A DNA stretch of 64,000 nt from an uncultured Gammaproteobacteria bacterium (GTDB taxonomy: Bacteria; Patescibacteriota; Microgenomatia; UBA8517). Positions within the stretch are counted from its first letter, which is position 1, and the number at the start of each line of letters is the position of its first letter. Location of the stretch: assembly GCA_965231135.1 (NCBI GenBank), contig OZ246419.1, forward strand, positions 385,488 through 449,487, in the 5' to 3' direction. Shown piece after piece: positions 36,830 through 63,430 of this stretch. The notes under the pieces are model-generated. The model saw only the letters and a list, made by a program, of their open reading frames with translations. It was not told the DNA's origin and ran no database searches. Both the position numbers and the translations under genes were made by a program.

Positions 36830-37559
36830 ACTCTGTTAAATCAAAATTTCTTGTGATAAAGACAGACGCAGAACCTCCATCTAAATTGATAATATCTGCA
36901 AAATTAATATTTTCTTTTTGTTCAAATTGATTTAATAAACTTGGAACATCGTTTAAAAACGGACCTGAAAATTCTGAATCCTTGTCATAAATAACTAAAA
37001 AATATAAATTATTGTTGCCGTCAACAGCTGCCAAAACTCTTCGAGAATTTTTATCATTTGTAATTTGTAAGCTGTCGTAAGAATTATTTTCTTTAATTAT
37101 TGGACCTGTTTGGACTGCAATTTGTAAATGGTCTTGTGGTAAATTTTGGGTAATTCTTGGAGTTGCGAAATCATTAACTGACAAAACACCATTTAATAAA
37201 TTGTTATTTTCATAATCTGAAATTGTATTTCCATTTGTAATAATTAATCCAAGAGGTTGATTGTTTGTACCATAAAACGGACCGTTTGCTAAAAACATAC
37301 AACTATTTTGATCTATTACATCTTTGGAAGAAAGCTTTTGAGAAAAATTGGGAATTAATTTTAAATTATTTATGTTTATTATTTGGTACCAGGAAAAAGT
37401 GTAATTATTTATTTCTGCAGAATTATTTTGAGCAACTGGAGTAGGGGATGGAATTTGAGCATTTGATTTTTGCGGATTAGTATTTTTGTTTTTAAGTATT
37501 AAAATACCAAAGATAACTAAAGGGATAAAAATTAAAATGGCAATTAAAAGTTTTCGCAT
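36795..37559 (-). CDS. secreted phosphodiester glycosidase family (DUF2233-like) protein
   Basis: N-terminal signal anchor. Motifs ANGPFY, RRVLAAVDGNNNLYFLVI and INLDGGSAS resemble the NAGPA/phosphodiester glycosidase family. Confidence 0.5.
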   Translation of the reverse strand: MRKLLIAILIFIPLVIFGILILKNKNTNPQKSNAQIPSPTPVAQNNSAEINNYTFSWYQIININNLKLIPNFSQKLSSKDVIDQNSCMFLANGPFYGTNNQPLGLIITNGNTISDYENNNLLNGVLSVNDFATPRITQNLPQDHLQIAVQTGPIIKENNSYDSLQITNDKNSRRVLAAVDGNNNLYFLVIYDKDSEFSGPFLNDVPSLLNQFEQKENINFADIINLDGGSASVFITRNFDLTEFNPVGAFFCQS

Positions 37560-38265
37560 ACAAGATATTATAGTTCACAATTGCAATTTTTTAAACTTTA
37601 ATCTATCCGAAAGTTCGGTTGATTTAATAATCACTTCCCCTCCTTACAATATTGGAATAGATTATGGAATTTATAACGATAACAAAACTTATAAAGAATA
37701 TCTTGAATTTACAAAAAAGTGGTTAGGAAAAAGTTTTGACATTTTAAAAAGTAACGGACGAATTTGCATTAATGTGCCAATTGACACAGGAAAGAACGGA
37801 AAAAGAAGTTTGGCCGCTGACTTAACAATTCTTGCAAAAAGAACTGGTTTTAAATATAAAGGAACAATTGTTTGGGATCATTCGACTTCGCTCATGACTA
37901 GTAGCAAACAAAAAAAGTTTTATGCAATGGCGTTTTCTAAAAATATAGAGTTAATTTTGATTTTTTACAAAGATGAATGGATTTCTGTAAAAAAAGAATT
38001 TAGAGATTATGTAAATGAAATTTGGAAATTTAGCGGCGAAAATCCAAAAAGAGTAAACCACCCTGCAGCTTTTCCAGTTGAGATTCCAAGAAGACTAATA
38101 AAAATGTTTAGCGAAACAAATGATATTGTTTTAGATCCGTTTTTGGGAAGCGGGACGACGCTTATGGCGTGTAAACAATTATTAAGAAAAGGAATTGGAA
38201 TAGAAATTGACGAGAAATATTTTGAAGGTTCAAAAACAAGAATTAGTGACCAAAATAAACACTAA
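37537..38265 (+). CDS. site-specific DNA methyltransferase (beta-class N6-adenine/N4-cytosine, ParB-less), apparently orphan
   Basis: Motif IV SPPY (VDLIITSPPYNIG) precedes AdoMet motif I (VLDPFLGSGTT) near the C-terminus, which is the beta-class order. No adjacent endonuclease candidate. The start at 37537 overlaps the divergent upstream gene by 23 nt. Confidence 0.75.
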   Translation: MAIKSFRIQDIIVHNCNFLNFNLSESSVDLIITSPPYNIGIDYGIYNDNKTYKEYLEFTKKWLGKSFDILKSNGRICINVPIDTGKNGKRSLAADLTILAKRTGFKYKGTIVWDHSTSLMTSSKQKKFYAMAFSKNIELILIFYKDEWISVKKEFRDYVNEIWKFSGENPKRVNHPAAFPVEIPRRLIKMFSETNDIVLDPFLGSGTTLMACKQLLRKGIGIEIDEKYFEGSKTRISDQNKH

Positions 38266-38495: not shown

Positions 38496-40073
38496 ATGCT
38501 TGTTGAGGATAAAAGAAATTTAGAGAAACAACTTTGGGCAGTTGCCAATGTTCTTCGAGGAAAAATGAATGCGGATGAATATAAAAATTATATTCTAGGC
38601 TTTATTTTTTACAAATACCTTTCTGAAAAACTTGAACGCTTTATAAACGATAAACTTCTTTCTAGAGAGAACTATAAATTTTCTGGAATTGGGGGAAACA
38701 CCCAAAAAGATAGGGATGTTTTAAAAGCAGTAGAACATGCCTGTGTAGAGCAGCTAGGATACTTTTTGAGACCCAGAGAACTGTTTTTGTATTTAGTCAA
38801 AAAAGGCAACCGGGAAATTAAAGGACAGGAAAACTTCATACTTGAAGATCTTAAAAGTGTTTTAAACACAATTGAACAAACATCAATGGGAACAGCGAGT
38901 GAAGATGATTTTAAAGGTTTGTTTGATGATGTAGATTTAACTTCTTCAAAACTTGGGAAAACTGAGACTAAGAAAAATGAGGTAATTGTTGAAGTCTTAA
39001 CATTGCTTTCTGGAATTGATTTTAAATTGGAAGATACCAAAAGCGATCTTTTGGGAGATGCTTATGAATATTTGATTGGAGAGTTTGCGGCAGGTGCTGG
39101 TAAAAAGGGAGGGGAATTTTATACACCTGCTCAAGTTTCAAGATTATTGTCGAAAATTGTTACTGAAGGAAAACAAAGAATTAAATCGGTTTATGATCCG
39201 ACATGTGGTTCAGGGTCGCTTCTTCTTCGCGTTGGGGATTTTGCACAAATTGTTGATTATTACGGACAGGAATTAAACCCTACAACTTACAATTTGGCAC
39301 GTATGAATATGATCCTTCATGGAGTTCGTTTTGACCATTTTAGTATTAGGCATGGCGATACGCTAACTGATGACATGCATCAAGATTTACAAGCTGAAGC
39401 AGTTGTTGCTAATCCTCCATTTTCAGCAGATTGGGAGAGTAATAAAAATCCTTTGCTTGAACAGGATGAGCGGTTTTCTCAGTACGGAAGATTAGCTCCA
39501 AAGGGATATGCGGATTATGCGTTTGTGACCCATATGATTTATCATTTGGCAGATAACGGCGTAATGGCAGTAGTTCTTCCCCATGGAGCACTCTTTAGGG
39601 GAGGAGCAGAAGGCCAAATACGAAAGCACATAATTGAAAGACAAAATTATCTGGATGCAGTGATAGGGCTTCCGGCAAATCTTTTTTATGGCACTTCAAT
39701 TCCAGCTTGTATCCTAATTTTCAAAAAATGCAGAAAAGAAGATCAAGATATTTTATTTATTGACGCCTCGAAAGAGTTTGAAAAAGGAAAAAATCAAAAT
39801 AAATTAACAGATGAAAATATCGAGAAGATTTTTGAGACTTATAGAAATAGAAAAGAATTAAAAAGATATTCTCACAGAGCAAGTTTGAATGAAATAAAAG
39901 AAAATGAATATAACCTAAATATTCCAAGATATGTAGATACCTTTGAGCCAGAACCGGAAATTGATATAGAAAAAGTTGCAAAAGAAATTAAGACTTTGGA
40001 AATAGATGAAGTGAAACTTCAAGGAAAAATAGCAGAATTTTGCAAAGAATTAAAAATAGAAATCCCTTTTTGA
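38496..40073 (+). CDS. hsdM: Type I restriction-modification system, DNA methyltransferase subunit M
   Basis: N-terminal HsdM_N-like helical domain (LWAVANVLRGKMNADEYKNYILGFIFYKYLSE). AdoMet motif YDPTCGSGSLL. Catalytic NPPF (VVANPPFS). Confidence 0.9.
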   Translation: MLVEDKRNLEKQLWAVANVLRGKMNADEYKNYILGFIFYKYLSEKLERFINDKLLSRENYKFSGIGGNTQKDRDVLKAVEHACVEQLGYFLRPRELFLYLVKKGNREIKGQENFILEDLKSVLNTIEQTSMGTASEDDFKGLFDDVDLTSSKLGKTETKKNEVIVEVLTLLSGIDFKLEDTKSDLLGDAYEYLIGEFAAGAGKKGGEFYTPAQVSRLLSKIVTEGKQRIKSVYDPTCGSGSLLLRVGDFAQIVDYYGQELNPTTYNLARMNMILHGVRFDHFSIRHGDTLTDDMHQDLQAEAVVANPPFSADWESNKNPLLEQDERFSQYGRLAPKGYADYAFVTHMIYHLADNGVMAVVLPHGALFRGGAEGQIRKHIIERQNYLDAVIGLPANLFYGTSIPACILIFKKCRKEDQDILFIDASKEFEKGKNQNKLTDENIEKIFETYRNRKELKRYSHRASLNEIKENEYNLNIPRYVDTFEPEPEIDIEKVAKEIKTLEIDEVKLQGKIAEFCKELKIEIPF

Positions 40074-40074
40074 T

Positions 40075-40917
40075 ATGAAGCGAAACACCAAACTTGCGAT
40101 GTCAGTCCATGAGAGTAATATAAATGTTGCTAAAGTAGGAGCTGAAGATTATATCTGTTTAACAGATATGGCTCGTAGTGCTGGTGCGGATAGAGCACTT
40201 CACAGTTGGCTAAGATCAAAAAACACAATAGATTTCTTGGGGTTTTGGGAGAAGATAAATAACCCTGATTTTAAAATACACGAATTCGTGTATTTTAAAA
40301 ATAATGCAGGTTCGAATAGCTTTAATCCATCAGTTGCTGATTGGATATTGAAGACAGGTGCAAAAGGTATTTTTTCTAAAAAAGGACGGTATGGTGGAAC
40401 ATACGCACACAAAGATATCGCTTTTGAGTTTGGAAGTTGGCTGAGTCCTGAGTTTAAGTTGTTGATAATTACAGAATTTCAAAGGTTGAAGGAGCGTGAG
40501 CAGAAATTTGCACGATGGGATGCACATAGATATTTGAGTAGAGTCAACTACAAGTTGCACACTGATTCTATTAAAAATGTGCTGCTACCATTTCTCCAAT
40601 TAGCTAAATCAGACGAAACATTTGTATATATAGATGAGGCAGATCTTTTGAACAAAATTGTATTTGGTCAAACTGCTTCAGAATGGAGAGCCAAAAATAA
40701 GAAATTGACAAAATCAGGACGAAATCAACGAGATTATGCATCCTCTCAGGAATTAGTTATACTTGCAAACCTGGAAAATTTGAATGCACATTTTATAAAT
40801 GAAAAGAAAACGCAAAAGGAGAGGGTGACACTTTTGATAGACTCGGCAGAAAGGCAATTACGAACTTTTATTAAAGAAGACGAAGAAGAGCAAAAACTTT
40901 TAGAAGCAAAGAAATAA
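40075..40917 (+). CDS. KilA-N domain-containing protein embedded in the Type I R-M operon
   Basis: N-terminal region (VAKVGAEDYICLTDMARSAG....SWLRSKNTIDFLGFWE) matches the KilA-N DNA-binding domain. The C-terminal half is helical. It starts 2 nt after the hsdM stop. Confidence 0.55.
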   Translation: MKRNTKLAMSVHESNINVAKVGAEDYICLTDMARSAGADRALHSWLRSKNTIDFLGFWEKINNPDFKIHEFVYFKNNAGSNSFNPSVADWILKTGAKGIFSKKGRYGGTYAHKDIAFEFGSWLSPEFKLLIITEFQRLKEREQKFARWDAHRYLSRVNYKLHTDSIKNVLLPFLQLAKSDETFVYIDEADLLNKIVFGQTASEWRAKNKKLTKSGRNQRDYASSQELVILANLENLNAHFINEKKTQKERVTLLIDSAERQLRTFIKEDEEEQKLLEAKK

Positions 40918-40919
40918 AC

Positions 40920-42143
40920 ATGATGATTAAAATTCCCAAACTCAGATTTCCTGAATTTAGTGGGGAGTGGGAAGAAAAAAAAATGGGGGATGTAGTGTGG
41001 CGAATTAAGACAGGAGTAAGTGTCAATTCTGAAGAAAGATTAAAGTTAACTAGCGAGTTGGGTATTTTAAAAACAAGTGCAGTTTTTAAAAGAAAATTTA
41101 AGCCTTATGAGCATAAAACTATTTTGTTGAGTGAGAATAAGAGAGCAAAAATTAATCCTAAAAAGGGAACTGTAATTGTTAGTAGGATGAACACCCCCGG
41201 TTTAGTAGGTGAAAGTGCCTATGTTTATGAAGACCATGACGATTTATATCTTCCTGATCGACTTTGGCTAGTTGAGTTTAATAAATATAGCAATGGTGAA
41301 TTTATAAGCTTTCTGATTTCAGAAGGTAAAATTAGAAGTAAGTTATCGACTATTGCTACAGGCACGAGTAATAGTATGAAAAATATTTCGCAACCTGGGT
41401 TTTTGGCAATTCGTATTTCTTTACCAAATTCAGATGAACAACAGAAAATTGCCTTATTTTTAACTTCTGTAGATTCTTGGATTGAAAGCCTTAAAAAACA
41501 ACAGGAGGAATTAGAAAAATACAAAAAAGGCATGATGCAAAAGATTTTTAGTCAAAAAATAAGATATAAAGATGATAATGGTAAAAATTTTCCTAAATGG
41601 GAAGAAAATAAATTAGGAGATTTGTTTGACGAATGCAACGACAGAAAAGAAAATCAAAGTTTTGAAATGTTATCTATTTCGCAAAGTAAGGGCATTGTTA
41701 AGCAAGATACAACAATTAAGAAAGATAGTTCTAGTTTAGACAAATCCAAGTATAAAATAGTTCGAGTTGGAGACATAGCATATAACACCATGCGTATGTG
41801 GCAAGGTGCGTCTGCTGTTTCTAGTTTTGATGGCATAGTGAGTCCTGCATATACAGTTGTTAGACCTAAAAAAGGCAATGTTATTTTTTTTGGATATCTT
41901 TTTAAATATCCTCGAATAGTGTTTAATTTTTATAGATATTCTCAAGGGCTTACATCAGATACTTGGAACCTTAAATTTAAGCATTTTTCTGAAATAATTG
42001 TGACAATACCTGCGAGTACTAAAGAGCAAGAAAAAATTGCCAATTTCTTGACTTCAATTGATAATCTTCTACAATCCAAGCAACAGCAAATTTCTATGGC
42101 AGAAAATTGGAAAAAAGGCTTAATGCAAAGGATGTTTGTATAA
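40920..42143 (+). CDS. hsdS: Type I restriction-modification system, specificity subunit S (two target-recognition domains)
   Basis: Conserved N-terminal LRFPEFSGEWEE, a central repeat LPNSDEQQKIALFLTSVDSWIESLKKQQEELEKYKKGMMQKIF and a C-terminal repeat STKEQEKIANFLTSIDNLLQSKQQQISMAENWKKGLMQRMF. Confidence 0.85.
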   Translation: MMIKIPKLRFPEFSGEWEEKKMGDVVWRIKTGVSVNSEERLKLTSELGILKTSAVFKRKFKPYEHKTILLSENKRAKINPKKGTVIVSRMNTPGLVGESAYVYEDHDDLYLPDRLWLVEFNKYSNGEFISFLISEGKIRSKLSTIATGTSNSMKNISQPGFLAIRISLPNSDEQQKIALFLTSVDSWIESLKKQQEELEKYKKGMMQKIFSQKIRYKDDNGKNFPKWEENKLGDLFDECNDRKENQSFEMLSISQSKGIVKQDTTIKKDSSSLDKSKYKIVRVGDIAYNTMRMWQGASAVSSFDGIVSPAYTVVRPKKGNVIFFGYLFKYPRIVFNFYRYSQGLTSDTWNLKFKHFSEIIVTIPASTKEQEKIANFLTSIDNLLQSKQQQISMAENWKKGLMQRMFV

Positions 42144-42145
42144 AT

Positions 42146-42820
42146 ATGGCTAAATCAAAATTTTATCCTCCAAAATTTAACGAAGGTCAATTTCATTGTC
42201 CTCACTGCGGTGTTTATGCAAAACAATTTTGGGCGCATATAAGGGCAACGAATCTACATTTTTCCGATTTTGTTATCAGAAACAATACTCCTTTTGATGA
42301 AGCACTTTCTGTAGAGTGGAGAATTTCTAGATGTGAACATTGCGGAAATTATATGTTTTGGTTGAATCAAGACATCGTTTATCCAGATAAAATTTCAGTA
42401 GACGATCCGAATGATGATTTAAATCCAGATATAAAAAGAGACTATAAAGAAGCAGCGGAGATACTTCATAAATCTCCTAGGGGCTCGGCTGCACTTCTGC
42501 GACTGTCATTACAAAAATTATTAAAACAACTTGGTGAAGAAGGAAATAATATTAATGAAGATATAAAGAAATTAATCGCTAACGGACTTAATCCTACGAT
42601 TCAGAAAGCACTTGATTATGTAAGGATAACAGGAAACAACGCAGTTCACCCTGGACAAATTGATCTTTCTGATAATAAAGATATAGCGTTAAAACTTTTT
42701 GAGGTTATTAACTTTATCGCTGAAAAGACGATTAGTGAACCAAAAGAAGTTAACAGATTGTTCGACAGTCTCCCTGAAGATGAAAAAGAAAAAATTAAAA
42801 AGAGAGACAATCAAAACTAA
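42146..42820 (+). CDS. DUF4145-like protein with N-terminal double CxxC zinc ribbon, embedded between hsdS and hsdR
   Basis: CPHCG...CEHCG zinc-ribbon spacing. The helical C-terminal region (AAEILHKSPRGSAALLRLSLQKLLKQLG...ALDYVRITGNNAVH) resembles DUF4145, which is often seen in Type I R-M loci. It starts 2 nt after the hsdS stop and ends 1 nt before the hsdR start. Confidence 0.45.
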   Translation: MAKSKFYPPKFNEGQFHCPHCGVYAKQFWAHIRATNLHFSDFVIRNNTPFDEALSVEWRISRCEHCGNYMFWLNQDIVYPDKISVDDPNDDLNPDIKRDYKEAAEILHKSPRGSAALLRLSLQKLLKQLGEEGNNINEDIKKLIANGLNPTIQKALDYVRITGNNAVHPGQIDLSDNKDIALKLFEVINFIAEKTISEPKEVNRLFDSLPEDEKEKIKKRDNQN

Positions 42821-42821
42821 C

Positions 42822-45614
42822 ATGACCACACAATCTGAAGCACAACTAGAACTGGAACTTATACAACAGCTTAATAAGCTGGGGTTTGAGAGTGTTACAA
42901 TTCCTGACTCCACCGCTTTAATAACAAATCTTAAACTTCAACTTGAAAAGTTTAATGAAACTAAACTTACTGACAGGGAATTTGAGAAAATTCTTAATCA
43001 TCTTATGCATGGTGATAGATTTGATAAAGGTAAAACTTTGCGTGATAGATTTTTATTGCACCGAGATGATGAGACAACTTTTTATATTCGCTTTTTTAAT
43101 ATGGATCAGTGGTGCCGTAATGTTTATCAAGTTGCTCATCAGATAACGCAAATGGGGAATTATAAAAATAGATATGATGTAACGCTTCTTGTGAATGGAC
43201 TTCCACTTGTTCAAATAGAATTAAAGAGGCGAGGCGTTGAAATGAAAGAAGCCTTTAATCAGATAAATCGCTATCAGAGAAATACTTTTACTGGAACTTT
43301 GTTTGAATATATTCAAATATTTGTAATTAGTAATGGCGTAAATACGAAATATTTTGCTAATAATCCAAGGCAATTTTTTGAACAAACTTTCTTTTGGACA
43401 GATGAGAAGAACAGGAAAATTACAAAGTTAAACGAATTTGCTGATGTATTTTTAGAAAAATGTAACCTTTCAGAAATGATTGCTGAATATATTGTTTTAG
43501 CCGAAGCCAAAGATAGGACAATGATGATTTTGCGGCCCTATCAGTATTATGCAGTGAAGGCTATCCAAAAACGAGTTCGTGAAGGAAATAAAAATGGATA
43601 TATCTGGCATACAACTGGATCAGGAAAGACTTTAACTTCTTTTAAAACTAGCCAAATACTTTCTAGAATTCCTGAAGTTAAAAAAATACTTTTTGTAGTT
43701 GATAGAAAAGATTTAGATATTCAGACAACTAAAGAATTTAACTCTTTTTCCAAAGATTCTGTGGACGGGACAGAAAATACTAAAAATTTAGTTAAGCAGC
43801 TGAAAGATAAAAATAGAAAATTAATTGTTACAACAATTCAAAAACTGGATGTTGCTATAAGGCGCGAAAAATATTTGGACCAGTTTGCTTATTTGCAAGA
43901 CGAAAAAGTGATAATTATTTTTGATGAATGTCACAGAAGTCAGTTTGGTCTGACAAATGCGCGAATTAGAAATTTTTTCCATAACGCCCAGATGTTTGGG
44001 TTTACAGGCACTCCGATTTTTGCAGAAAACAACATTGGTGGGGTAACCACTGCAGATGTGTTTGGAGAATGCTTGCATAAATATGTTATTACTCATGCAA
44101 TTGAAGATAAAAATGTTTTAGGATTTGCTGTTGAGTATGTTGGTAAATATAAACAAAAGTTTCCAGATACTGTATATATGGATAATTTTGTTGATCCTAC
44201 GGTTTCAGGAATTGATACTAAAGAGGTTTTAGAAAGTGATGATAGGGTTTCGAAAATTACGGATTATATTTTGAGTGATTGGAAAAAGAAAACAAAGAAT
44301 GGAAAATTTAATGCTTTTTTTGCGGTTTCTAACATTGAAGTTTTGAAAAAATATTATAAGCATCTAAAGACCCGAAAACCTGAAGATTTTAAGCTTGCAA
44401 CAATTTTTACATATCAGGCAAATGAAGAAGAATCAACAGATATGCTTGATGTTGATGTTTTTGCAGAAGGGGCTGTAAATGAACAGTCCCGGGAATTTTT
44501 AGAAAAATGTATTAAAGACTATAACGAAGTTTTTGGAACAAATTTTTCTACTGATAAGTTTTATAATTATTACAAAGATTTACAAAAAAGAATTAAAGAT
44601 AAAGAGGTAGATTTAGTGTTGGTTGTAAACATGTTTTTAACTGGATTTGATAGTGCAAGGCTTAATACTTTATATGTTGATAAAAACCTTCGTTATCATG
44701 GACTTATTCAAGCATACTCAAGAACAAATAGACTTTTGAATGCTGATAAACCTCATGGAAATATTGTAACATTTCGGAATTTAAAAGAAGCTACTGACCA
44801 AGCACTTGCTTTGTTTGGCGATGAGAACGCAAGGGAAATTGTATTCAAAAAACCATATGAAGAACAAAAGATAGAGTTTGAAATCAAACTACAAGAACTT
44901 AGAGAAAAGACTCCAACAGTAGAATCAGTAGATAATTTGCAGGGAGATGAAGAAAAAGCTTCTTTTGTTAAAACATTTCGTGATTTGCTTAGAATAAAAT
45001 CGTCCTTGGAAACCTTTGCCGAATTTTCTTTTGACAATCTTGGAATAACAGAACAGGAATTTTATGATTATCAAAGTAAATATTTAGATATTTATGAAAA
45101 AAGGAAAAACCAAACTGAAGAAGAATCGGTTCTTGATCAAATTGATTTTGAAATTGAGTTAACAGTGCGTGATATTATTGATTTTGATTATATTATTAAA
45201 CTTATTGCGGGACTTAAAGATATTACTTCCAAAGCTCTTCGTGAGAAGAAAACCGAAGAGATACTCAAACTATTTGATCATAGCGTAAAGCTTCGAAGCA
45301 AAAAGGAGCTAATAAGAAAGTTTATTGAGGAGAATTTACCTAAGGTTGTTGATTCTGGCAAGGCAGAAGACGCATTTGAAAACTTTTGGAATAGTGAGCG
45401 ATCAAAACAACTTAAAGAAATTGCAATAAAGGAAAACATCCAAGAAGAAAAATTTGAAAAATTAATTAGTGAATATTTATATACTCAAAAACTGCCAAGC
45501 GGCCAAGATATTGTTGATTCATTGCCTCAAACACCGCATATTCTAGAAAGACAAGGGATTATCGACAGAATCAAAACAGCAATAGAAAAAATTGTAGAAA
45601 TATTTGAGTGGTGA
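42822..45614 (+). CDS. hsdR: Type I restriction-modification system, restriction subunit R
   Basis: N-terminal PD-(D/E)XK nuclease core (YDVTLLVNGLPLVQIELKRRG). SF2 helicase motif I HTTGSGKTLTS, motif II DECHRSQ, and motif III/VI regions. About 930 aa. Confidence 0.9.
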   Translation: MTTQSEAQLELELIQQLNKLGFESVTIPDSTALITNLKLQLEKFNETKLTDREFEKILNHLMHGDRFDKGKTLRDRFLLHRDDETTFYIRFFNMDQWCRNVYQVAHQITQMGNYKNRYDVTLLVNGLPLVQIELKRRGVEMKEAFNQINRYQRNTFTGTLFEYIQIFVISNGVNTKYFANNPRQFFEQTFFWTDEKNRKITKLNEFADVFLEKCNLSEMIAEYIVLAEAKDRTMMILRPYQYYAVKAIQKRVREGNKNGYIWHTTGSGKTLTSFKTSQILSRIPEVKKILFVVDRKDLDIQTTKEFNSFSKDSVDGTENTKNLVKQLKDKNRKLIVTTIQKLDVAIRREKYLDQFAYLQDEKVIIIFDECHRSQFGLTNARIRNFFHNAQMFGFTGTPIFAENNIGGVTTADVFGECLHKYVITHAIEDKNVLGFAVEYVGKYKQKFPDTVYMDNFVDPTVSGIDTKEVLESDDRVSKITDYILSDWKKKTKNGKFNAFFAVSNIEVLKKYYKHLKTRKPEDFKLATIFTYQANEEESTDMLDVDVFAEGAVNEQSREFLEKCIKDYNEVFGTNFSTDKFYNYYKDLQKRIKDKEVDLVLVVNMFLTGFDSARLNTLYVDKNLRYHGLIQAYSRTNRLLNADKPHGNIVTFRNLKEATDQALALFGDENAREIVFKKPYEEQKIEFEIKLQELREKTPTVESVDNLQGDEEKASFVKTFRDLLRIKSSLETFAEFSFDNLGITEQEFYDYQSKYLDIYEKRKNQTEEESVLDQIDFEIELTVRDIIDFDYIIKLIAGLKDITSKALREKKTEEILKLFDHSVKLRSKKELIRKFIEENLPKVVDSGKAEDAFENFWNSERSKQLKEIAIKENIQEEKFEKLISEYLYTQKLPSGQDIVDSLPQTPHILERQGIIDRIKTAIEKIVEIFEW

Positions 45615-45616: not shown

Positions 45617-46318
45617 ATGAATATAAAAACCATTGGAGAGTTTGGTGAGAAATATGTGGGAGAATTTTTGGTGGCTGATATTGGCAGGAGAGATGAAATA
45701 AAAAGTGATTGGTATGAGGGGTTGAAGTTTTTCTTTTCTAAGTCGTTTTATAGAGGAAGGAAGGATGAAATTTCTGAAAATTTTCAGAAACGTGCGATGG
45801 AAGTTGTAGAGAATTTTGACTTAAAAAATAATATTAAAAGATTTAAATCGAGTGAATTTGAGGAGCTTTTGGTTGCAAATAAAGTTAATAATAGGGTTGA
45901 TAGAAGAATGATTTGTCAGACAATAGAAATGATCAGACACAACAACGGAAGAAATATTGTTTTATATTCTATTGAACAAATTCATGATGGAAATATTTCT
46001 GGTGTTTATCAAGAATTATGTAATATTTACGGGGTTGCTGATAAGATTGCAACATTTTTTCTTCGAGATTTGGCTTTGGTTTTTGAATTAGAAAATGAAA
46101 TAAAAAAGCAAGATTTTATTTACTTTCAGCCAATTGATACATGGGTAAAGCAAGTTAGTGATAAACTTGGAGTTACTGAACCGAGAGATGACAGAGAAGT
46201 GACTAAAAGCAAAATAATAAATAAATGTTTAATTGAACACACATCTCCTCTTTTGTTTAATGCTGGAGCTTGGTATGTAGGTAAACATTCATTCGATATT
46301 CTTTTAAATTATGTCTGA
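45617..46318 (+). CDS. HhH-GPD superfamily-like DNA glycosylase (predicted)
   Basis: Helix-hairpin-helix-like segment LCNIYGVADKIATFFLRDLA, with a Lys where Nth-type bifunctional enzymes have their catalytic Lys. A downstream FQPIDTWVKQV resembles the PVDTHV Asp-containing loop of EndoIII/Ogg/AlkA-family enzymes. No Fe-S Cys cluster. Starts 2 nt after the hsdR stop. Confidence 0.4.
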   Translation: MNIKTIGEFGEKYVGEFLVADIGRRDEIKSDWYEGLKFFFSKSFYRGRKDEISENFQKRAMEVVENFDLKNNIKRFKSSEFEELLVANKVNNRVDRRMICQTIEMIRHNNGRNIVLYSIEQIHDGNISGVYQELCNIYGVADKIATFFLRDLALVFELENEIKKQDFIYFQPIDTWVKQVSDKLGVTEPRDDREVTKSKIINKCLIEHTSPLLFNAGAWYVGKHSFDILLNYV

Positions 46319-47069
46319 TTATTACAAACCAAACAGGAAAAGAAATATTTATGATCCGGAATCTCGCGAGCCTTTTCGGCTTAGCCGCTCTAAAATTGAT
46401 CTTTTTATAAATTGCCCGAGGTGTTTTTATTTGGATCGGCGACTTGGGGTTTCTCAACCTCCATCTTATCCGTTTTCTTTAAATAGTGCTGTTGATAAGC
46501 TTCTTAAAAAAGAATTTGATATTCACCGAAATGCAAAAACGCAGCATCCTTTAATGAAAGCGTATGGAATTGATGCAATTCCTCTAGCACACGAGAAAAT
46601 TGATGAATGGAGAGATTCATTAAGAAGAGGAGTAACTGCGCCAATAGATGGGACAAATGTGATTATTACTGGAGGAGTTGATGATGTGTGGGTAAACCTA
46701 GCTGGCGAGTTTATTATTGTTGACTACAAATCTACTTCAAAGGAGACGGAAGTTAATTTGGATGCTGATTGGCAGATAGCTTATAAAAGGCAAATGGAAG
46801 TTTATCAGTGGCTATTTCGTAAAAATGGATTTAAAGTTTCTGACACTGGATATTTTGTTTATTGTAACGGCAACACAGATAGAAAAGCATTTGATGCAAA
46901 GCTTGAATTTGATATCAAATTAATTGCCTATAAAGGGGATACTTCATGGATTGCAGAAACAATAATGAATGCAATCAATTGTTTGAAGTCTGATGAACTT
47001 CCAGAGTGTGGAGAGGCTTGTGATTATTGTGCTTATAGAAAAGCTGTGAAAGAATATGAGAAAGCTTAA
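46311..47069 (+). CDS. PD-(D/E)XK nuclease, Cas4/RecB-like with a four-Cys (Fe-S) cluster
   Basis: N-terminal Cys (INCPRCFY). Motif II GGVDDVWV, motif III IIVDYKS (D-x-K), QxxxY motif RQMEVYQW, and three C-terminal Cys (CGEACDYC). Overlaps the upstream gene by 8 nt. Confidence 0.6.
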   Translation: MSDYYKPNRKRNIYDPESREPFRLSRSKIDLFINCPRCFYLDRRLGVSQPPSYPFSLNSAVDKLLKKEFDIHRNAKTQHPLMKAYGIDAIPLAHEKIDEWRDSLRRGVTAPIDGTNVIITGGVDDVWVNLAGEFIIVDYKSTSKETEVNLDADWQIAYKRQMEVYQWLFRKNGFKVSDTGYFVYCNGNTDRKAFDAKLEFDIKLIAYKGDTSWIAETIMNAINCLKSDELPECGEACDYCAYRKAVKEYEKA

Positions 47070-47753: not shown

Positions 47754-49007
47754 ATGAAAAAAATAAAAGTTTCTATTCAAGACGAAAACACTTTGGTGCT
47801 ATTGGAGGATGCTCAAAAAGGTGATTTGGTTGATCTTAAATCAATACATGAAACAGATATTGATAAATCTTCAATCGATAACCTAATTAAATCAATCAAA
47901 ACGGATGAGTTTGATACGCAATTAGAAGTTGCGAAACGTAGTATAGAAAAAGAGAAAAGACTTGAAGCTGAAATTAAAGAAAAGGAAGCACTTGCAAAAA
48001 GAGACCAGGAAATTGCAGCTCTGAACATAAGAATTCAGACAGCAGATATTGAGAAAAAACTTGCTGTTACAGAAGCAACAAAAAAAATTGAGAAAGAACG
48101 AAATGATTTAGTTAATGAAGTAAGAAATAAAGAGATAGAAAAACAATTACTTGAGAAGTCTCTAACCGAGAAATTTTCTGCCGAACTTAAGACTAAAGAT
48201 GATGTTATCAAGATGAAAGATGATGAGATTGCTCTTCGTAAAGATATGAAACTTAGATTGTCAACAAAAATGGTAGGCGAAACATTAGAGCAACATTGTG
48301 AGGTGGAATTTAACAAACTTCGAGCTACTGCTTTTCCAAAGGCCTATTTTGAAAAAGATAATGATTCTAGAAGTGGGAGTAAGGGAGACTACATTTATAG
48401 AGATGTGGATGAATCTGGTACTGAAATAATTTCAATTATGTTTGAGATGAAAAACGAAGGAGACGAGACGGCTACAAAACATAAGAACGAGGATTTTTTA
48501 CAAGAACTTGATAAAGATCGATTAGAAAAAAAATGTGAGTATGCTGTTTTGGTTACGTTATTGGAAATTGATAATGATTTATATAACTCCGGTATTGTTG
48601 ATGTTTCGCATAAATACCCCAAAATGTATGTAGTCCGTCCTCAGTTTTTTATTCCTATAATAACAGTGCTTCATAATGCTGCTATGAATTCACTTAAATA
48701 TAAGACAGAGCTTGCATTGGTGAGAAGTCAAAATATTGATATTACAAATTTTGAGAATGATATAAATAAATTTAAGGAAGGGTTTGCAGGTAATTTTGAT
48801 CTTGCTAGCCGTAAATTTAAAACAGCTATAGATGAAATTGATAAAACGATGGATCATTTACAGAAAACGAAAGAGGCTTTATTGTCATCTGTGAATAATC
48901 TTAGGCTTGCAAATAGTAAAGCACAGGATTTAACTATCAAGAAATTAACGCGTGGTAATCCTACAATGACAGCAAAATTTGAAGAAATAAATCAGAAAAT
49001 CAGTTGA
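47754..49007 (+). CDS. coiled-coil protein with C-terminal RmuC/DUF2130-like predicted PD-(D/E)XK domain
   Basis: Residues about 60-170 are Lys/Glu-rich heptad-like coiled coil. Downstream, [28 protein letters not shown] has a D...hhhExK arrangement, followed by [16 protein letters not shown]...YAVLV...GIVDVS, reminiscent of DUF2130/RmuC proteins. Assignment is from memory. Confidence 0.4.
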
Positions 49008-50631: not shown

Positions 50632-51465
50632 ATGCCTGATAAATATAAAGCAGTTTGGGTTTCTCATTCTTCAATAGCTGATTTTTTAAAATGCCCGAGA
50701 CTTTATTATCTTCGTAATGTTTATAAAGATAAAAAAACTGGACATAAAATCACAATTATGACTCCTCCTCTTGCTTTGGGGCAATCTGTGCATGAAGTAA
50801 TTGAATCTCTATCTTTTTTACCAGTTGAAGAGAGATTTAATGCAAAAATTTTTGAAAAATACGATGAAGCTTGGAAAAAAGTATCCGGGAAACTTGGAGG
50901 CTTTAGGGATTTAGAAAAAGAAAAAGAATATAAAGAAAGAGGAAGAGCAATGCTTCAAGTGATTATTGATAATCCAGGACCGCTTTCTCATAAGGCAATT
51001 AAAATACGAGCAGACGGAGGGCTTCCGTATTACTTTCTATCAGAAGAAGAAAATATTATTTTGTGCGGCAAAATTGACTGGATTGAATATTTAGAAGAAA
51101 CGGACGCTATAAATATTTTAGATTTTAAAACGGGAAAAAACGAAGAAGACGAAGATTCGCTGCAACTTCCAATTTATTATTTACTTGCAAAAAATTTACA
51201 AAAAAGAAAAGTTGAAAAAATAAGCTATTGGTATTTGGATCATCAAAATCCAAAAGATATTGTGGAAATGGAAATTCCAAATGAAATTGATGCAAAAACC
51301 AGAGTTTATGAAGTTGCAAAAAGAATAAAACTTGCAAGACAAATTGAGCTTTTCAAATGCCCAAAGGGAGGATGTTTTGCCTGCCGAGATTTAGAGAGAG
51401 TTTATAACGGTGAGGGAGAAAAAGTGGGCGAGAGCGAATATCGACAGGATATTTATATTTTGTAA
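50632..51465 (+). CDS. PD-(D/E)XK nuclease, Cas4/RecB-like with four-Cys cluster (second paralog)
   Basis: N-terminal Cys (FLKCPRLYY). Motif II GKIDWIEY, motif III ILDFKTGK, QxxxY LQLPIYYLL, and C-terminal CPKGGCFAC. Confidence 0.6.
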   Translation: MPDKYKAVWVSHSSIADFLKCPRLYYLRNVYKDKKTGHKITIMTPPLALGQSVHEVIESLSFLPVEERFNAKIFEKYDEAWKKVSGKLGGFRDLEKEKEYKERGRAMLQVIIDNPGPLSHKAIKIRADGGLPYYFLSEEENIILCGKIDWIEYLEETDAINILDFKTGKNEEDEDSLQLPIYYLLAKNLQKRKVEKISYWYLDHQNPKDIVEMEIPNEIDAKTRVYEVAKRIKLARQIELFKCPKGGCFACRDLERVYNGEGEKVGESEYRQDIYIL

Positions 51466-55621: not shown

Positions 55622-56059
55622 ATGATAATTGGGTCGTACGAAAGCAGTTTGGGCGATAAAAGGCGAACGGCAGTTCCTAGAAAATTTCTAGGAGAGCTTG
55701 GGGAAGAATTTATTGTAGCTAAATGGTATGAGAATTGTCTGGTTTTAGTTAGTAATGAATTTTGGAATAAAGTAATTGATCGATTAACTGGCGGAACAAA
55801 AGTTTTAGAGCTTGGGGTAAGAGATATAGATAGATTTATTATCGGAAGTGCGTTTCAGGTTACGCCAGATGAGCAGGGAAGAATAATTATTCCAGAAATT
55901 TTGGCACAATATGCACATTTAGAAAGAGATTTAATATTTGTAGGGCTTGGAGATAGAGTCGAGATCTGGAATAAAAATGATTGGGATTTGAAAAGTGTTG
56001 AAGTAGCAAAAACTACAAAGGAATTTATTGAAAGTTTGTCAGAGAGGAATAAAAAATGA
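55622..56059 (+). CDS. mraZ: transcriptional regulator MraZ
   Basis: Tandem SpoVT/AbrB-like halves (GDKRRTAVPRKF and DEQGRIIIPEIL). First gene of the dcw cluster. Confidence 0.85.
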   Translation: MIIGSYESSLGDKRRTAVPRKFLGELGEEFIVAKWYENCLVLVSNEFWNKVIDRLTGGTKVLELGVRDIDRFIIGSAFQVTPDEQGRIIIPEILAQYAHLERDLIFVGLGDRVEIWNKNDWDLKSVEVAKTTKEFIESLSERNKK

Positions 56060-56877
56060 CAGTTTTACACGAGCCAGTACTTTTGAAAGAGGTGATTGAA
56101 GAATTGCACATTAAAAATCAAGGAAAGTATATTGACGCAACAGAAGGAGCGGGAGGTTATACAAAAGCAATTGTCGATGCCGGAGGAGAAGTTTTGGGAA
56201 TTGATGCAGATGATTCAATGCTTGAAATTGCAAAACAGAATGTTGATAGCGAGAAAGCAAAATTGGTTAACGGAAATTTTAGAAATATTAAAGAGATTGC
56301 AACTCGTTATGACTTTTACCCAGCTGATGGAATTGTTTTTGATCTGGGGATAAGCAATGTACATTTTGCAGATGAAAAAAGAGGCTTTTCGTTTAAAAAT
56401 CCTGATGCGATTTTGGATATGAGACTAAATTCAGAAACGCAAGGAGTTATGGCGAAAGATTTATTAAATGGTTTGAGAGAAGATCAGCTTGAAGAATTAT
56501 TTGGACGAAGCTTGGCTTTGAGAATTATTAATTTTAGAAAGCAGAAATTATTTGAAAAAGTTGGTGATCTTTTAAGTTTATTTCCGGAGAAAAAGTTTGC
56601 GGATAAAACACATCCAGCGACTAAAGCATTTTTAATGTTACGTATTGCAGTCAATAGCGAACTTGAGAATTTAAAGGAAACCTTGCCGCAGGCAATTGAA
56701 ATTTTAAAGCCTGGGGGAAGACTTGTTGTTGTTAGTTTTAATTCGTCGGAAGACGAAATTGTGAAGCATTATTTACAAAGCAAAAGTTTTGTATTGCCGA
56801 GTGATGAGGAAATAAAAAGAAATCCAAAATCACGAAGCGCAATTTTGAGAAGTTATGTCAAAAAAAATAACTCGTAA
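56056..56877 (+). CDS. rsmH: 16S rRNA (cytosine1402-N4)-methyltransferase RsmH (MraW)
   Basis: HEPVLLKEVIEEL start and YIDATEGAGGYTKA AdoMet motif. ATGA overlap with mraZ. Confidence 0.8.
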   Translation: MTVLHEPVLLKEVIEELHIKNQGKYIDATEGAGGYTKAIVDAGGEVLGIDADDSMLEIAKQNVDSEKAKLVNGNFRNIKEIATRYDFYPADGIVFDLGISNVHFADEKRGFSFKNPDAILDMRLNSETQGVMAKDLLNGLREDQLEELFGRSLALRIINFRKQKLFEKVGDLLSLFPEKKFADKTHPATKAFLMLRIAVNSELENLKETLPQAIEILKPGGRLVVVSFNSSEDEIVKHYLQSKSFVLPSDEEIKRNPKSRSAILRSYVKKNNS

Positions 56878-57130
56878 TATTATTATTTTAGTTTTAATTG
56901 TACTTTTTGTTGGTACTATTTTTGCAGCTGTTGAAGCATCAGCTGCAGGAAATAAACTTGTTGCTCTTGAAAATAAATATGATGAACTTACTCAGGAAAA
57001 CCAGGAAATGCAAGATAAACTTGTAGGCAGCACTTCTTTGACAAGTATTGCAAAAGAAGCAAGCAGCTCGGGAATGATATCGCCTGAAGCATATGTTTAT
57101 ATAACAAATTCAGGAATAGCTTTAAGATGA
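56855..57130 (+). CDS. ftsL: cell division protein FtsL-like (septum formation initiator)
   Basis: 91 aa: N-terminal TM (IIILVLIVLFVGTIFAAV) followed by a coiled coil. Position between rsmH and ftsI. Confidence 0.6.
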   Translation: MSKKITRNIIILVLIVLFVGTIFAAVEASAAGNKLVALENKYDELTQENQEMQDKLVGSTSLTSIAKEASSSGMISPEAYVYITNSGIALR

Positions 57131-60594: not shown

Positions 60595-60597
60595 TCT

Positions 60598-62770: not shown

Positions 62771-63426
62771 AGAAGACAATTAGATTAATTATTTTTTTAG
62801 TTTTTATTTTTTTAATTTTGTTTTTACTTCTGAAGTTTATTAAGATTCAAAAAATAATTTGCACATCTCAATATGGAAATTGTGATACAACTCTTGAAAC
62901 TTCAATAAATAATTTGCAAAACAAAAATGAAAATTTTATACAAACTTATTTTGATTTAAAAAATATTTTAAAGAATTCAAAAAGTATTCTAGATTACAGA
63001 ATTGATTTAGTTTTGCTATTTGATTTTAAAGTAAATGTAATATCGCGAACTGCAATTGTTGCATTTAGTTTAAAGGATGGAAATTATGGACTTATTGATA
63101 GGAACGGAGTTTTAATTTCAGAAGTTCGTGATACAAATTTGCCAAAAATAATTAGTTATTATAATCCAACTTCAGATCAGCTTGATTTTATTGCGAATTT
63201 GGTTTCGCGAATTTATACTTTGTATACACCAACGCAAACAAAAGTTATGTCTGATGGAATTTATTTTGAGAATTTAAAGGGCAAGACGGTTATTTTTCCA
63301 ATGGATGGAGATCAGGATGAATTAATTGGTTCTTTAAATATTATTTTTTCACGATTGCCAAGTATAAAAGAAGCTTCTACAATTAGTCAGATTGACTTAA
63401 GGTATAAAAATCCTGTATTAAGATAG
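62767..63426 (+). CDS. ftsQ: cell division protein FtsQ/DivIB-like (N-terminal TM plus POTRA-like domain)
   Basis: Single N-terminal TM, in the murG-ftsA position. A short 219-aa form. Confidence 0.55.
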   Translation: MKKTIRLIIFLVFIFLILFLLLKFIKIQKIICTSQYGNCDTTLETSINNLQNKNENFIQTYFDLKNILKNSKSILDYRIDLVLLFDFKVNVISRTAIVAFSLKDGNYGLIDRNGVLISEVRDTNLPKIISYYNPTSDQLDFIANLVSRIYTLYTPTQTKVMSDGIYFENLKGKTVIFPMDGDQDELIGSLNIIFSRLPSIKEASTISQIDLRYKNPVLR

Positions 63427-63430
63427 ACAC

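What the first reader, a model, noticed from the sequence alone, without database searches (positions are those of the whole stretch)
45617..47069. hsdR-coupled two-gene module: HhH-GPD-like DNA glycosylase plus Cas4-like Fe-S nuclease
Two genes sit directly downstream of the Type I restriction subunit and are packed as if co-translated with it. The first begins 2 nt after the hsdR stop. The second overlaps the first by 8 nt.

Gene 1 has a helix-hairpin-helix segment (GVADKIATFFLRDLA, with Lys where Nth-type bifunctional glycosylases have their catalytic Lys). It also has an Asp loop (PIDTWV) resembling the PVDTHV motif of EndoIII/Ogg/AlkA-type base-excision enzymes. It lacks the Fe-S cysteines.

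Gene 2 has the full RecB/Cas4 motif set (D, D-x-K, QxxxY) and a 1+3 cysteine arrangement.

A glycosylase paired with a nuclease and welded onto a Type I R-M would be an unusual accessory layer. Glycosylase-type restriction (R.PabI-like) and glycosylases that excise modified phage bases are both known ideas, but this pairing with hsdR is not a described system as far as I know.
Basis: partly seen in the sequence, partly recalled or inferred. Interest (0 to 1): 0.8.

Follow-up and report, generated by a model that had tools for sequence, protein, structure and literature searches.

The report
Glycosylase and solo-Cas4 beside restriction genes
Both genes are real and correctly typed (an Ogg-like DNA glycosylase from an undescribed family, and a Cas4-like nuclease), but they are not a module tied to the restriction enzyme: the nuclease ends many different defence-gene arrays in related bacteria, and the glycosylase is an occasional passenger in front of it.

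Summary
The sequence observation is confirmed. hsdR stops at 45614, gene 1 starts at 45617, and gene 2 (46311) overlaps gene 1 by 8 nt.

Gene 2 is a PDDEXK_1 solo-Cas4-like nuclease with conserved D, DxK, QxxxY and four Cys.

The hsdR-glycosylase-nuclease trio is not conserved:
- Among 81 non-redundant gene 1 loci, two others have an hsdR-like gene within four genes.
- The closest homologue (63%) sits among housekeeping genes.
- Gene 2 orthologues (55-80% identity) are always the last gene of co-directional arrays of different defence systems (Type I/III/IIG R-M, CBASS, Gabija, Ppl, RT). None of those arrays contains gene 1.

One result favours a link. In a sister clade (61-62% identity), gene 1 is followed just as tightly by a different solo-Cas4 (DUF2779), and that nuclease also ends defence arrays without gene 1.

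Best reading: an autonomous cargo glycosylase next to a conserved island-boundary nuclease. A functional glycosylase-nuclease pair remains possible (about 0.2).

The parts
45617..46318 (+). Gene 1 (233 aa). Member of an uncharacterised HhH-GPD family with an Ogg-like catalytic pair (K143, D174). Predicted autonomous DNA glycosylase/AP lyase. Cargo gene of the island.
46311..47069 (+). Gene 2 (252 aa). Solo-Cas4-like PD-(D/E)XK nuclease with a putative 4-Cys Fe-S site. Conserved last gene of variable defence arrays in Patescibacteria.
   Evidence: PF12705 at 7.6e-14, above its cut-off. The Cas4 models score below their cut-offs. Conserved motifs and cysteines. More than 8000 relatives, the top 120 at 75-80% identity. 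Contexts. DNA homology to other loci starts 5-6 nt before its ATG and ends at its stop.
42819..45614 (+). hsdR, Type I restriction subunit. The likely start is the ATG at 42819; the longest ORF starts at TTG 42699.
   Evidence: HSDR_N, SWI2_SNF2, T1R_D3-like and EcoR124_C domains. TIGR00348 scores 505 bits. PADLOC REase_I at 1.6e-303.
42107..42820 (+). DUF4145 protein (PADLOC PD-T7-4) inserted between hsdS and hsdR.
   Evidence: PF13643 at 4.5e-13. PDLC04109 PD-T7-4 at 3.9e-86.
40920..42143 (+). hsdS specificity subunit.
   Evidence: The identical gene on contig L117 carries PF01420 Methylase_S. BLAST match to the hsdS of L112.
40075..40917 (+). KilA-N domain protein (PADLOC candidate PDC-S22) inserted between hsdM and hsdS.
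   Evidence: PF04383 at 9.5e-22. PDLC04962 at 1e-103.
38496..40073 (+). hsdM, Type I methyltransferase subunit. First gene of the co-directional array.
   Evidence: 40% identity over 530 aa to the hsdM-position gene of L122. Matches N6_Mtase genes of L113 and L124.
37486..38265 (+). Small N6/N4-type DNA methyltransferase just upstream of the Type I operon. Assigned by similarity only.
   Evidence: BLAST and phmmer matches to genes annotated PF01555 N6_N4_Mtase in L113, L115 and L006.

Best explanation
The two genes are independent neighbours at the 3' edge of a defence island, not an hsdR-dependent module.

**Gene 2.** It is a conserved solo-Cas4-type Fe-S PD-(D/E)XK nuclease. In Patescibacteria it is the invariant last gene of co-directional arrays whose other genes are interchangeable defence systems. 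It is inferred to be a DNA-end-processing or recombination nuclease with a general role. Its 5' flank serves as a hotspot for defence cargo.

**Gene 1.** It is one such cargo gene. It belongs to an undescribed family of the HhH-GPD superfamily and keeps the catalytic Lys and Asp of Ogg/Nth-type bifunctional enzymes.

**Inferred mechanism.** Gene 1 acts alone. It binds duplex DNA through the helix-hairpin-helix and flips out a non-canonical base of unknown identity. K143 attacks C1' to form a Schiff base with help from D174. The base is released and the strand is nicked by beta-elimination.

**Biological role (unresolved).** It could excise modified bases from invading DNA, a modification-dependent base-excision defence comparable in logic to Brig1. 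Or it could be an accessory repair glycosylase. I weight these about equally.

**Shown versus inferred.** Shown: the fold, the residue conservation and the gene contexts. Inferred: enzyme activity, substrate and role.
For: **Fold and active site**
- AF2 pLDDT 95.5.
- The 134-sequence profile hits CacOgg 3f0z at E=3.1e-4. It aligns K143 to K222 and PIDTWV to PVDTWV. The score falls from 23.4 to 18.8 bits for the K222Q mutant chains.
- K143 and D174 are invariant.

**Gene 1 has no fixed partner**
- 81 non-redundant loci give no conserved neighbour by BLAST clustering or phmmer.
- Neighbouring Pfam families are heterogeneous: recombinases, DNA methylases, ResIII, GIY-YIG, RT and AbiEii, mixed with housekeeping genes.
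- The closest homologue is in a housekeeping context that is conserved over many contigs.
- No nuclease fusions were seen among 1,194 family representatives.

**Gene 2 closes unrelated arrays**
- L112: Type I R-M, Fic and a toxin-antitoxin pair. L113: methylases and UvrD. L115 and L123: Type III R-M.
- L122: Type I R-M and CBASS. L126: hsdR and Gabija. L124 and L128: Type IIG and Ppl.
- L129: Type I R-M and a Ppl-like gene. L130: PLD-helicase, MmeI-type methylase and RT. L131: the same plus HEPN AbiU2.
- Sources.
- Nucleotide homology between these loci and the window is confined to gene 2 itself.
- L113 and L130 share gene 2 plus Trypsin_2 at 81% nt identity but have different upstream cargo.

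**A second solo-Cas4 family behaves the same way**
- The DUF2779 nuclease also closes arrays.
- A DUF2779 member is quasi-essential in JCVI-syn3.0, which argues for a general role rather than a purely immune one (PMC13621843).
Against: - Gene 1 lies directly in front of a Cas4-like nuclease in two sister clades, with non-orthologous nucleases and near-identical overlapping junctions. In L034 versus L136/L137, gene 1 plus DUF2779 is a conserved block while the upstream cargo differs. That is more linkage than pure chance insertion predicts.
- The hotspot reading of gene 2 rests on about 15 contexts, 8 of them from contigs labelled viral. No empty site and no upstream boundary were identified.
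- The enrichment of R-M genes around gene 1 is not statistically established: 15 of 476 genes within 6 kb against 2 of 120 at 6-10 kb.
Confidence: 0.6

Rival explanations
1. Gene 1 and the adjacent Cas4-like nuclease form a functional two-gene base-excision restriction unit, and the nuclease partner is exchangeable. The glycosylase/lyase creates abasic sites or nicks at a foreign or modified base. The Cas4-like exonuclease enters at these sites and degrades the DNA. It would be a split, catalytically active analogue of END nucleases.
For: - Two independent junctions put gene 1 directly in front of a solo-Cas4: PDDEXK_1 in the window, DUF2779 in L034, L136, L137 and L138. The spacing is a 2-nt gap or an 8-nt overlap.
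- Gene 1 plus DUF2779 is conserved as one block at 74-77% nt identity with unrelated upstream genes.
- An EndoIII/Ogg-like domain combined with nuclease domains in defence is documented (PMC12191111).
Against: - 14 of 14 other gene 2 contexts and 4 of 7 DUF2779 contexts lack gene 1.
- Only about 4 of the gene 1 lineages examined (81 non-redundant loci plus L136-L138), all 61% or more identical to each other, have a Cas4-like neighbour.
- The closest homologue (63%) and L002 (56%) have none.
- No gene 1-nuclease fusions were seen.
- Whatever gene comes last in an array is equally tightly joined to the nuclease.
Confidence: 0.22
2. This is an accessory layer specific to the Type I enzyme: glycosylase and nuclease are co-translated with hsdR and work with it.
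For: - There is a 2-nt gap after hsdR, the genes are co-directional, and no terminator-like site was found between them.
- L016 has a gene 1 homologue overlapping an hsdR-like gene by 4 nt, in the opposite order. L079 and L036 have hsdR-like genes within about 5 kb.
Against: - No other locus carries the trio.
- Gene 2 follows non-Type I systems as often as Type I systems.
- Gene 1 occurs mostly without any hsdR.
- In other genomes the slot between hsdR and gene 2 holds CBASS (L122), Gabija (L126), Fic plus toxin-antitoxin (L112) or a Ppl-like gene (L129).
Confidence: 0.03
3. Gene 1 is not a DNA glycosylase. It would be an HhH-GPD-fold enzyme acting on a nucleotide or nucleoside (like the queuine-salvage hydrolase DUF2419/Qng1), or on a DNA modification (like the phage 5-PmdU glycinyltransferase), or a non-catalytic sensor.
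Against: - The helix-hairpin-helix (I-x-G-V/I-x-D-K-I/L-A) and the P-x-D-T-W-V loop match the Ogg catalytic segment at sequence level.
- Lys and Asp are invariant across 134 diverse members, unlike the inactivated END sensor domains (PMC12191111).
- 4 of 48 relatives hit Pfam Ogg-HhH, best E 5e-6.
Confidence: 0.1

Closest known systems
Ogg-type HhH-GPD glycosylase/AP lyases (Clostridium acetobutylicum Ogg, Ogg2 of Thermotoga/Sulfolobus, archaeal AGOG) and endonuclease III
   Different: Gene 1 shares only 9-17% identity with these enzymes. The window protein hits no Pfam or NCBIfam glycosylase model. It has 12 extra residues between the HhH and the Asp relative to CacOgg. It also has family-specific invariant motifs (FYRGRxDE-S, D95, N113, LRD, NAGAW) of unknown role. 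The substrate is unknown. The family is patchily distributed on islands and plasmids rather than being a core repair gene.
END nucleases (inactivated EndoIII/Ogg domain fused to PLD or other nuclease domains; PMC12191111)
   Same: Both place an EndoIII/Ogg-like HhH module beside a nuclease in a defence-island context. In END nucleases the module has a proposed role in recognising non-canonical phage bases.
   Different: END domains have lost the catalytic residues and are fused to the nuclease. Gene 1 keeps an invariant Lys and Asp, is a separate ORF, and mostly occurs without any nuclease.
Brig1/Brig2/Brig3 anti-phage DNA glycosylases (PMC11078745, PMC13160076)
   Same: These are single-gene base-excision defences found in defence islands. 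That is a possible functional analogy for gene 1.
   Different: Brig proteins belong to the uracil-DNA-glycosylase superfamily and have an alpha/beta fold. Gene 1 has the all-alpha HhH-GPD fold and looks bifunctional. No phage phenotype is known for gene 1.
Solo-Cas4 / PDDEXK_1 and DUF2779 nucleases (for example MMSYN1_0389 of JCVI-syn3.0, PMC13621843; AddB/RecB nuclease domain)
   Same: Gene 2 has the RecB-type motifs and a 1+3 Cys set, and it lies outside any CRISPR locus. No tandem array typical of CRISPR is present in the window.
   Different: Gene 2 scores below the Cas4 equivalog cut-offs: TIGR00372 gives 37 bits against 65, and PF01930 gives 19.8 against 22.7. Its constant position as the last gene of variable defence arrays did not appear in the papers I searched.
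Repair genes linked to R-M systems (Vsr next to Dcm; Mig.MthI HhH-GPD T/G glycosylase next to the MthTI R-M system on plasmid pFV1). Recalled from own knowledge; a literature search found nothing to cite.
   Different: Those enzymes correct deamination of 5-methylcytosine made by C5-methylases. The methylases here are N6/N4 type, and the linkage of gene 1 to methylases is loose.

Membership tests
HhH-GPD DNA glycosylase superfamily | Two-domain all-alpha fold with a central helix-hairpin-helix. | tested here: met
HhH-GPD DNA glycosylase superfamily | Conserved catalytic Asp following the HhH / Gly-Pro-rich loop. | tested here: met
   D174 is invariant in 134 sequences. It aligns to the Asp of PVDTWV in CacOgg.
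HhH-GPD DNA glycosylase superfamily | Lys in the HhH as Schiff-base nucleophile (bifunctional subclass). | tested here: met
   K143 is invariant. It aligns to CacOgg K222, and the profile score drops 4.6 bits for the K222Q chains. Chemistry was not tested.
HhH-GPD DNA glycosylase superfamily | Match to a curated sequence model (Pfam HhH-GPD, Ogg-HhH or similar). | tested here: not met
   The window protein gives 0 Pfam and 0 NCBIfam hits at E<=1. Only 4 of 48 relatives hit PF22175 Ogg-HhH, best E 5e-6.
HhH-GPD DNA glycosylase superfamily | Base excision from DNA. | not testable with these tools
   This needs an enzyme assay.
Cas4 / RecB-like PD-(D/E)XK nucleases (PF12705 PDDEXK_1) | Match above the curated cut-off, with motifs D, (D/E)xK and QxxxY. 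| tested here: met
   PF12705 scores 52.7 bits against a cut-off of 22. D124, D138-x-K140 and Q161...Y165 are invariant.
Cas4 / RecB-like PD-(D/E)XK nucleases (PF12705 PDDEXK_1) | Four cysteines (1 N-terminal plus 3 C-terminal) for a Fe-S cluster. | tested here: met
   C35, C237 and C240 are invariant, and C224 is at least 90% conserved. Metal content was not tested.
CRISPR-associated Cas4 proper | Score above the Cas4 equivalog cut-off, and linkage to cas1/cas2 or a CRISPR array. | tested here: not met
   TIGR00372 scores 37 bits against 65, and PF01930 scores 19.8 against 22.7. No CRISPR-like tandem array is in the window. No cas genes appear in any of about 15 contexts.
   No other locus carries the trio. 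hsdR-like genes lie within four genes of gene 1 in 2 of 81 loci. Gene 2 orthologues never have gene 1 upstream.
END nucleases | Catalytically inactivated EndoIII/Ogg domain fused to a nuclease domain. | tested here: not met
   The catalytic Lys and Asp are invariant. Gene 1 is a single-domain protein of 233 aa. No nuclease fusions were seen among the longer family members inspected.
Brig-type defence glycosylases / R.PabI restriction glycosylases | UDG-superfamily fold (Brig) or the PabI-specific fold. | tested here: not met
   All strong structural matches are HhH-GPD.
Defence-island / hotspot cargo gene | Neighbourhood significantly enriched in defence and mobile-element genes. | tested here: inconclusive
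   13 of 35 well-flanked loci have an R-M gene within 6 kb, and recombinases flank 6 of 89. The R-M density near gene 1 against 6-10 kb away is not significant.

The most novel reading that the evidence does not exclude
In Patescibacteria, two unrelated-in-sequence solo-Cas4 families (PDDEXK_1 of 251 aa, and DUF2779 of 503 aa) may be functional terminal components of modular, co-directional defence arrays. They could act as a shared DNA-degrading effector or RecBCD surrogate, or as the element that organises cassette capture at a fixed junction. Gene 1 would then be the first catalytically intact HhH-GPD glycosylase acting as an anti-phage effector. It would excise modified phage bases and hand nicked or abasic DNA to the adjacent Cas4-like exonuclease.
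Probability: 0.15. Interest if true: 0.75.

Novelty: new member of a known kind. Interest (0 to 1): 0.48.

Why it matters
Gene 1 defines a sizeable family with no Pfam, NCBIfam or PADLOC model: about 1,200 clusters at 50% identity, in bacteria, archaea and archaeal plasmids. It belongs to a well-understood enzyme superfamily and has an intact bifunctional active site. It often lies near R-M genes and recombinases.

After Brig1-3 and the END nucleases, it is a reasonable candidate for a base-excision defence with a different fold. It is cheap to test.

Separately, two solo-Cas4 families consistently close co-directional defence arrays in genome-reduced bacteria. This gives a concrete handle on the long-unclear role of solo-Cas4 proteins. 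It also gives a practical anchor for mining new defence systems in the candidate phyla radiation.

Tried and rejected
- Direct profile searches of gene 1 against Pfam, NCBIfam, PADLOC and PHROGs found nothing useful.
- A single-sequence PDB search gave only a spurious RMD5 hit.
- The first 48-sequence profile gave a marginal Ogg hit (E 0.014) mixed with kinase noise. The hit became significant only with 134 sequences.
- The genome scan with the 48-sequence alignment failed because no block was conserved enough. It was redone with 31 sequences.
- I looked for a hidden conserved partner among the many 360-400-aa neighbours of gene 1. phmmer clustering and PDB searches of two of them found nothing. 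A sub-threshold NucS_C hit (E 0.008) was not pursued.
- I took L131 versus L132 as a possible cassette swap next to an identical gene 2. blastn showed the same locus with small indels, so this is not evidence.
- No composition anomaly, tRNA, promoter excess or terminator excess marks the island.
- The viral structure library gave no relatives. The afdb50 fold library was unavailable.
- Longer family members were inspected for nuclease fusions. The extensions are a GGCT-like domain (by eye), DUF4926 (precomputed Pfam annotation) or unknown sequence, not nucleases.
- Distant homologues on Haloquadratum and Methanocaldococcus plasmids have uninformative annotation.
- R-M enrichment around gene 1 was tested against distance and was not significant.
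Full report
**1. Observation**

The ORFs are as described.
- hsdR ends with TGA at 45612-45614.
- Gene 1 runs from ATG 45617 to TGA 46316-46318 (233 aa).
- Gene 2 runs from ATG 46311 to 47069 (252 aa), so it overlaps gene 1 by 8 nt.

The N-terminus MNIKTI matches homologues, which makes ATG 45617 the true start rather than GTG 45608.

The whole run is co-directional, with gaps of 2 nt or less or overlaps: hsdM (38496), KilA-N, hsdS, DUF4145, hsdR, gene 1, gene 2. No internal terminator-like or promoter-like signal exceeds the shuffled expectation.

The window comes from a Patescibacteria metagenome-assembled genome (names). It has about 32% GC, and there is no compositional step at the island.

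**2. Gene 1**

Gene 1 hits no model in Pfam, NCBIfam or PADLOC.

*Family size.* A word-indexed search found 88 relatives. An exhaustive profile search found 1,194 representatives of 50%-identity clusters at E<=1e-3. Nearly all are single-domain proteins of 230-310 aa.

*Structure.* An AlphaFold model built on 48 sequences is very confident: pLDDT 95.5, pTM 0.92, all-helical.
- The top Foldseek hits against the PDB are CacOgg, SsOgg, EndoIII and hOGG1. Probability is about 1, but E is only about 1e-2.

*Active site.* In a 134-sequence alignment the invariant columns are D95, K143, R150, P172 and D174.
- The profile of that alignment hits wild-type Clostridium acetobutylicum Ogg at E=3.1e-4.
- It aligns ...VGDKIA... 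to ...VGPKVA... and QPVDTWV to FPVDTWV.
- The chains in which that Lys is Gln score 4.6 bits lower.
- K143 and D174 therefore occupy the positions of the Ogg catalytic Lys222 and Asp241.
- Relative to CacOgg there are 12 extra residues between the HhH and the Asp.

*Conclusion.* Gene 1 is a new sequence family of the HhH-GPD superfamily with an intact bifunctional (glycosylase/AP-lyase) dyad and no Fe-S loop. Activity and substrate are inferred, not shown.

**3. Gene 2**

- PF12705 PDDEXK_1 scores 52.7 bits against a cut-off of 22.
- The Cas4 models score below their cut-offs: PF01930 gives 19.8 against 22.7, and TIGR00372 gives 37 against 65.
- Conserved residues are D124, D138-x-K140, Q161...Y165, C35, C224, C237 and C240.

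The family is very large and very conserved. More than 8000 proteins match, and the best 120 (each a different 90% cluster) are 75-80% identical and 251 aa long. No CRISPR-like array or cas gene is nearby. Gene 2 is therefore a solo-Cas4-type nuclease.

**4. Is there a trio or a pair?**

*From the side of gene 1.*
- I collected 111 loci and reduced them to 81 non-redundant ones.
- BLAST clustering of the four neighbours on each side found no conserved partner. The largest neighbour families were N6/N4 methylases (7 loci) and serine recombinases (4). hsdR-like genes appeared in 2 loci and a gene 2 orthologue in 1, four genes away.
- phmmer clustering did not change this.
- Pfam scans of 89 immediate and 147 further neighbours gave a mixture. 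It included recombinases, DNA methylases, ResIII, Eco57I, GIY-YIG, RT, NERD, AbiEii and Type ISP genes. It also included plain housekeeping genes such as SecDF, sigma-70 and gyrase.
- 13 of 35 loci with at least 4 kb of flank have an R-M gene within 6 kb. However, R-M density near gene 1 does not differ significantly from that 6-10 kb away.
- The closest homologue (63% identity, Beckwithbacteria, seen on many contigs) lies between an LD-carboxypeptidase and a CPDase, near thyA and folA.
- Distant homologues occur on Haloquadratum and Methanocaldococcus plasmids.

*From the side of gene 2.*
- I examined seven contexts chosen only for contig length: the window, L112, L113, L115, L129, L130 and L131.
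- I examined eight more from contigs labelled viral (L121-L128, seven of them distinct because L124 and L125 are the same locus).
- In almost all, the orthologue is the last gene of a co-directional block of recognisable defence genes. The previous stop codon lies within about 25 nt of its ATG.

The blocks are:

| Locus | Genes upstream of the gene 2 orthologue |
|---|---|
| L112 | Type I R-M, Fic, toxin-antitoxin pair |
| L113 | methylases, LexA-like gene, UvrD |
| L115, L123 | Type III R-M |
| L122 | Type I R-M, CBASS (SMODS, SLATT) |
| L126 | hsdR, Gabija |
| L124 | Type IIG, Ppl |
| L128 | Ppl |
| L129 | Type I R-M, Ppl-like gene |
| L130 | PLD-helicase, MmeI-type methylase, reverse transcriptase |
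| L131 | PLD-helicase, MmeI-type methylase, HEPN AbiU2 |

- None of these blocks contains gene 1.
- Nucleotide homology between these loci and the window starts 5-6 nt before the gene 2 ATG (around ...AAATT ATGTC...) and ends at its stop codon.
- L113 and L130 share gene 2 plus a downstream Trypsin_2 gene at 81% nt identity but have unrelated upstream cargo.

The window's slot between hsdR and gene 2 is thus occupied elsewhere by CBASS, Gabija, Fic plus toxin-antitoxin, or Ppl. Gene 1 is one alternative occupant.

**5. A complication that partly rescues the pair**

The sister clade of gene 1 (61-62% identity; L034, L136, L137, L138) has gene 1 followed by a different solo-Cas4, a 503-aa protein with Cas4-like and DUF2779 domains.
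- The spacing is a 2-nt gap or an 8-nt overlap (ATGAATAA).
- This nuclease is only 22% identical to gene 2.
- Between L034 and L136/L137, gene 1 plus DUF2779 is a single conserved block at 74-77% nt identity that begins at the gene 1 start codon.
- The upstream genes differ. L034 has an EcoRI-type methylase, GmrSD-HNH and an RT. L136/L137 have Type ISP and Pif1.

The DUF2779 nuclease also closes defence arrays that lack gene 1: Type ISP in L139, Type IIG plus Gabija in L140 and L141, and Type III R-M in L006. It too can be followed by Trypsin_2.

So two solo-Cas4 families share the same terminal position, and gene 1 has come to lie directly in front of each of them.
- This fits insertion of a mobile glycosylase cassette at the array-nuclease junction.
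- It equally fits a functional glycosylase-nuclease pair with partner exchange.
- Against an obligate pair: most gene 1 lineages and most nuclease loci lack the other gene, and no fusion proteins were seen.

**6. Literature**

- The known defence glycosylases Brig1 and Brig3 belong to the UDG superfamily (PMC11078745, PMC13160076).
- END nucleases use an inactivated EndoIII/Ogg domain fused to nuclease domains to sense hypermodified phage DNA (PMC12191111).
- DUF2779 proteins are solo-Cas4 plus DEDDh fusions of unknown role. One is quasi-essential in JCVI-syn3.0, which suggests a function beyond immunity (PMC13621843).
- Defence hotspots flanked by conserved genes are a known concept (PMC10250203, PMC9122126).
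- I found no description of the gene 1 family, or of solo-Cas4 genes as terminal genes of defence arrays in Patescibacteria.

**7. Verdict**

The fold and motif assignments are supported. The claim of an hsdR-coupled system is not supported.

The most likely picture (about 0.6) has three parts:
- an autonomous cargo glycosylase/lyase of a new Ogg-like HhH-GPD family;
- its location at the boundary of a defence island;
- a conserved solo-Cas4 nuclease next to it, one that marks the 3' end of such islands.

A partner-swappable glycosylase-nuclease unit remains a live alternative (about 0.2).

Whether gene 1 defends against modified phage DNA or repairs host DNA cannot be decided computationally.

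Noticed in passing
window 38496-45614: The Type I R-M operon is interrupted by two extra genes that match candidate or known defence models. A KilA-N protein (PADLOC PDC-S22, 1e-103) lies between hsdM and hsdS. A DUF4145 protein (PADLOC PD-T7-4, 3.9e-86) lies between hsdS and hsdR. L112 also has DUF4145 genes on both sides of hsdS.
   Followed up: partly
window 46305-46313, and the same position in L112, L113, L115, L121-L131: In every locus the gene upstream of the gene 2 orthologue ends within about 25 nt of its ATG, often using a TAA inside a shared AT-rich junction (...TAAATT ATGTC...). No Shine-Dalgarno-like sequence is visible by eye. DNA homology between loci begins exactly there. This could reflect translational coupling or a fixed recombination junction. 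It is unexplained.
   Followed up: partly
L003 8075-9358; L113 8758-10035; L124 8759-10045; L130 8758-10035; L140 9540-10628: A Trypsin_2 serine-protease gene follows the solo-Cas4 gene within a few nt to a few tens of nt in several loci, after both the PDDEXK_1 and the DUF2779 nuclease types. This is a possible nuclease-protease pair. It is absent from the window.
   Followed up: no
window 50632-51465: A second solo-Cas4-like PDDEXK_1 gene (277 aa, PF12705 5.5e-20, 21% identical to gene 2) lies 3.5 kb downstream. It also matches PADLOC Argonaute-associated Cas4-like nuclease models weakly.
   Followed up: no
window 47754-49007: A DUF2130 protein (417 aa, PF09903 1.1e-87) with a long coiled-coil N-terminal part lies just downstream of the island. 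It has no PADLOC or NCBIfam hit.
   Followed up: no
L006/L026 8814-9995 and L008 5253-6323; L040 and L046 upstream genes: In the Kazan-type lineage, gene 1 homologues are preceded, with a 4-nt overlap, by an unannotated 356-393-aa protein (weak, sub-threshold NucS_C hit, E 0.008). They are followed by a serine recombinase and a Type III R-M system. A DUF2779 nuclease sits at the far end of that array (L006 19513-20685).
   Followed up: partly
L133 (Haloquadratum walsbyi PL100) 6629-7594; NC_008213 (PL47); L134 (M. jannaschii pDSM2661_1) 6401-7681: Distant gene 1 homologues (25-39% identity over the C-terminal half) are encoded on archaeal plasmids as hypothetical proteins. The M. jannaschii one is embedded in a 426-aa protein.
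   Followed up: no
P0316 (438 aa), P0065 (331 aa): A few family members carry N-terminal extensions: a gamma-glutamylcyclotransferase-like domain (YFAYGSNM motif, judged by eye) and DUF4926. None of the extensions looked like a nuclease.
   Followed up: partly
window 1-33000 and 55622-64000: The flanks are ordinary chromosome. One side is a long run of glycosyltransferase and membrane-protein-like genes. The other is a cell-division/cell-wall (dcw)-like cluster. Both were judged from translations only.
   Followed up: no
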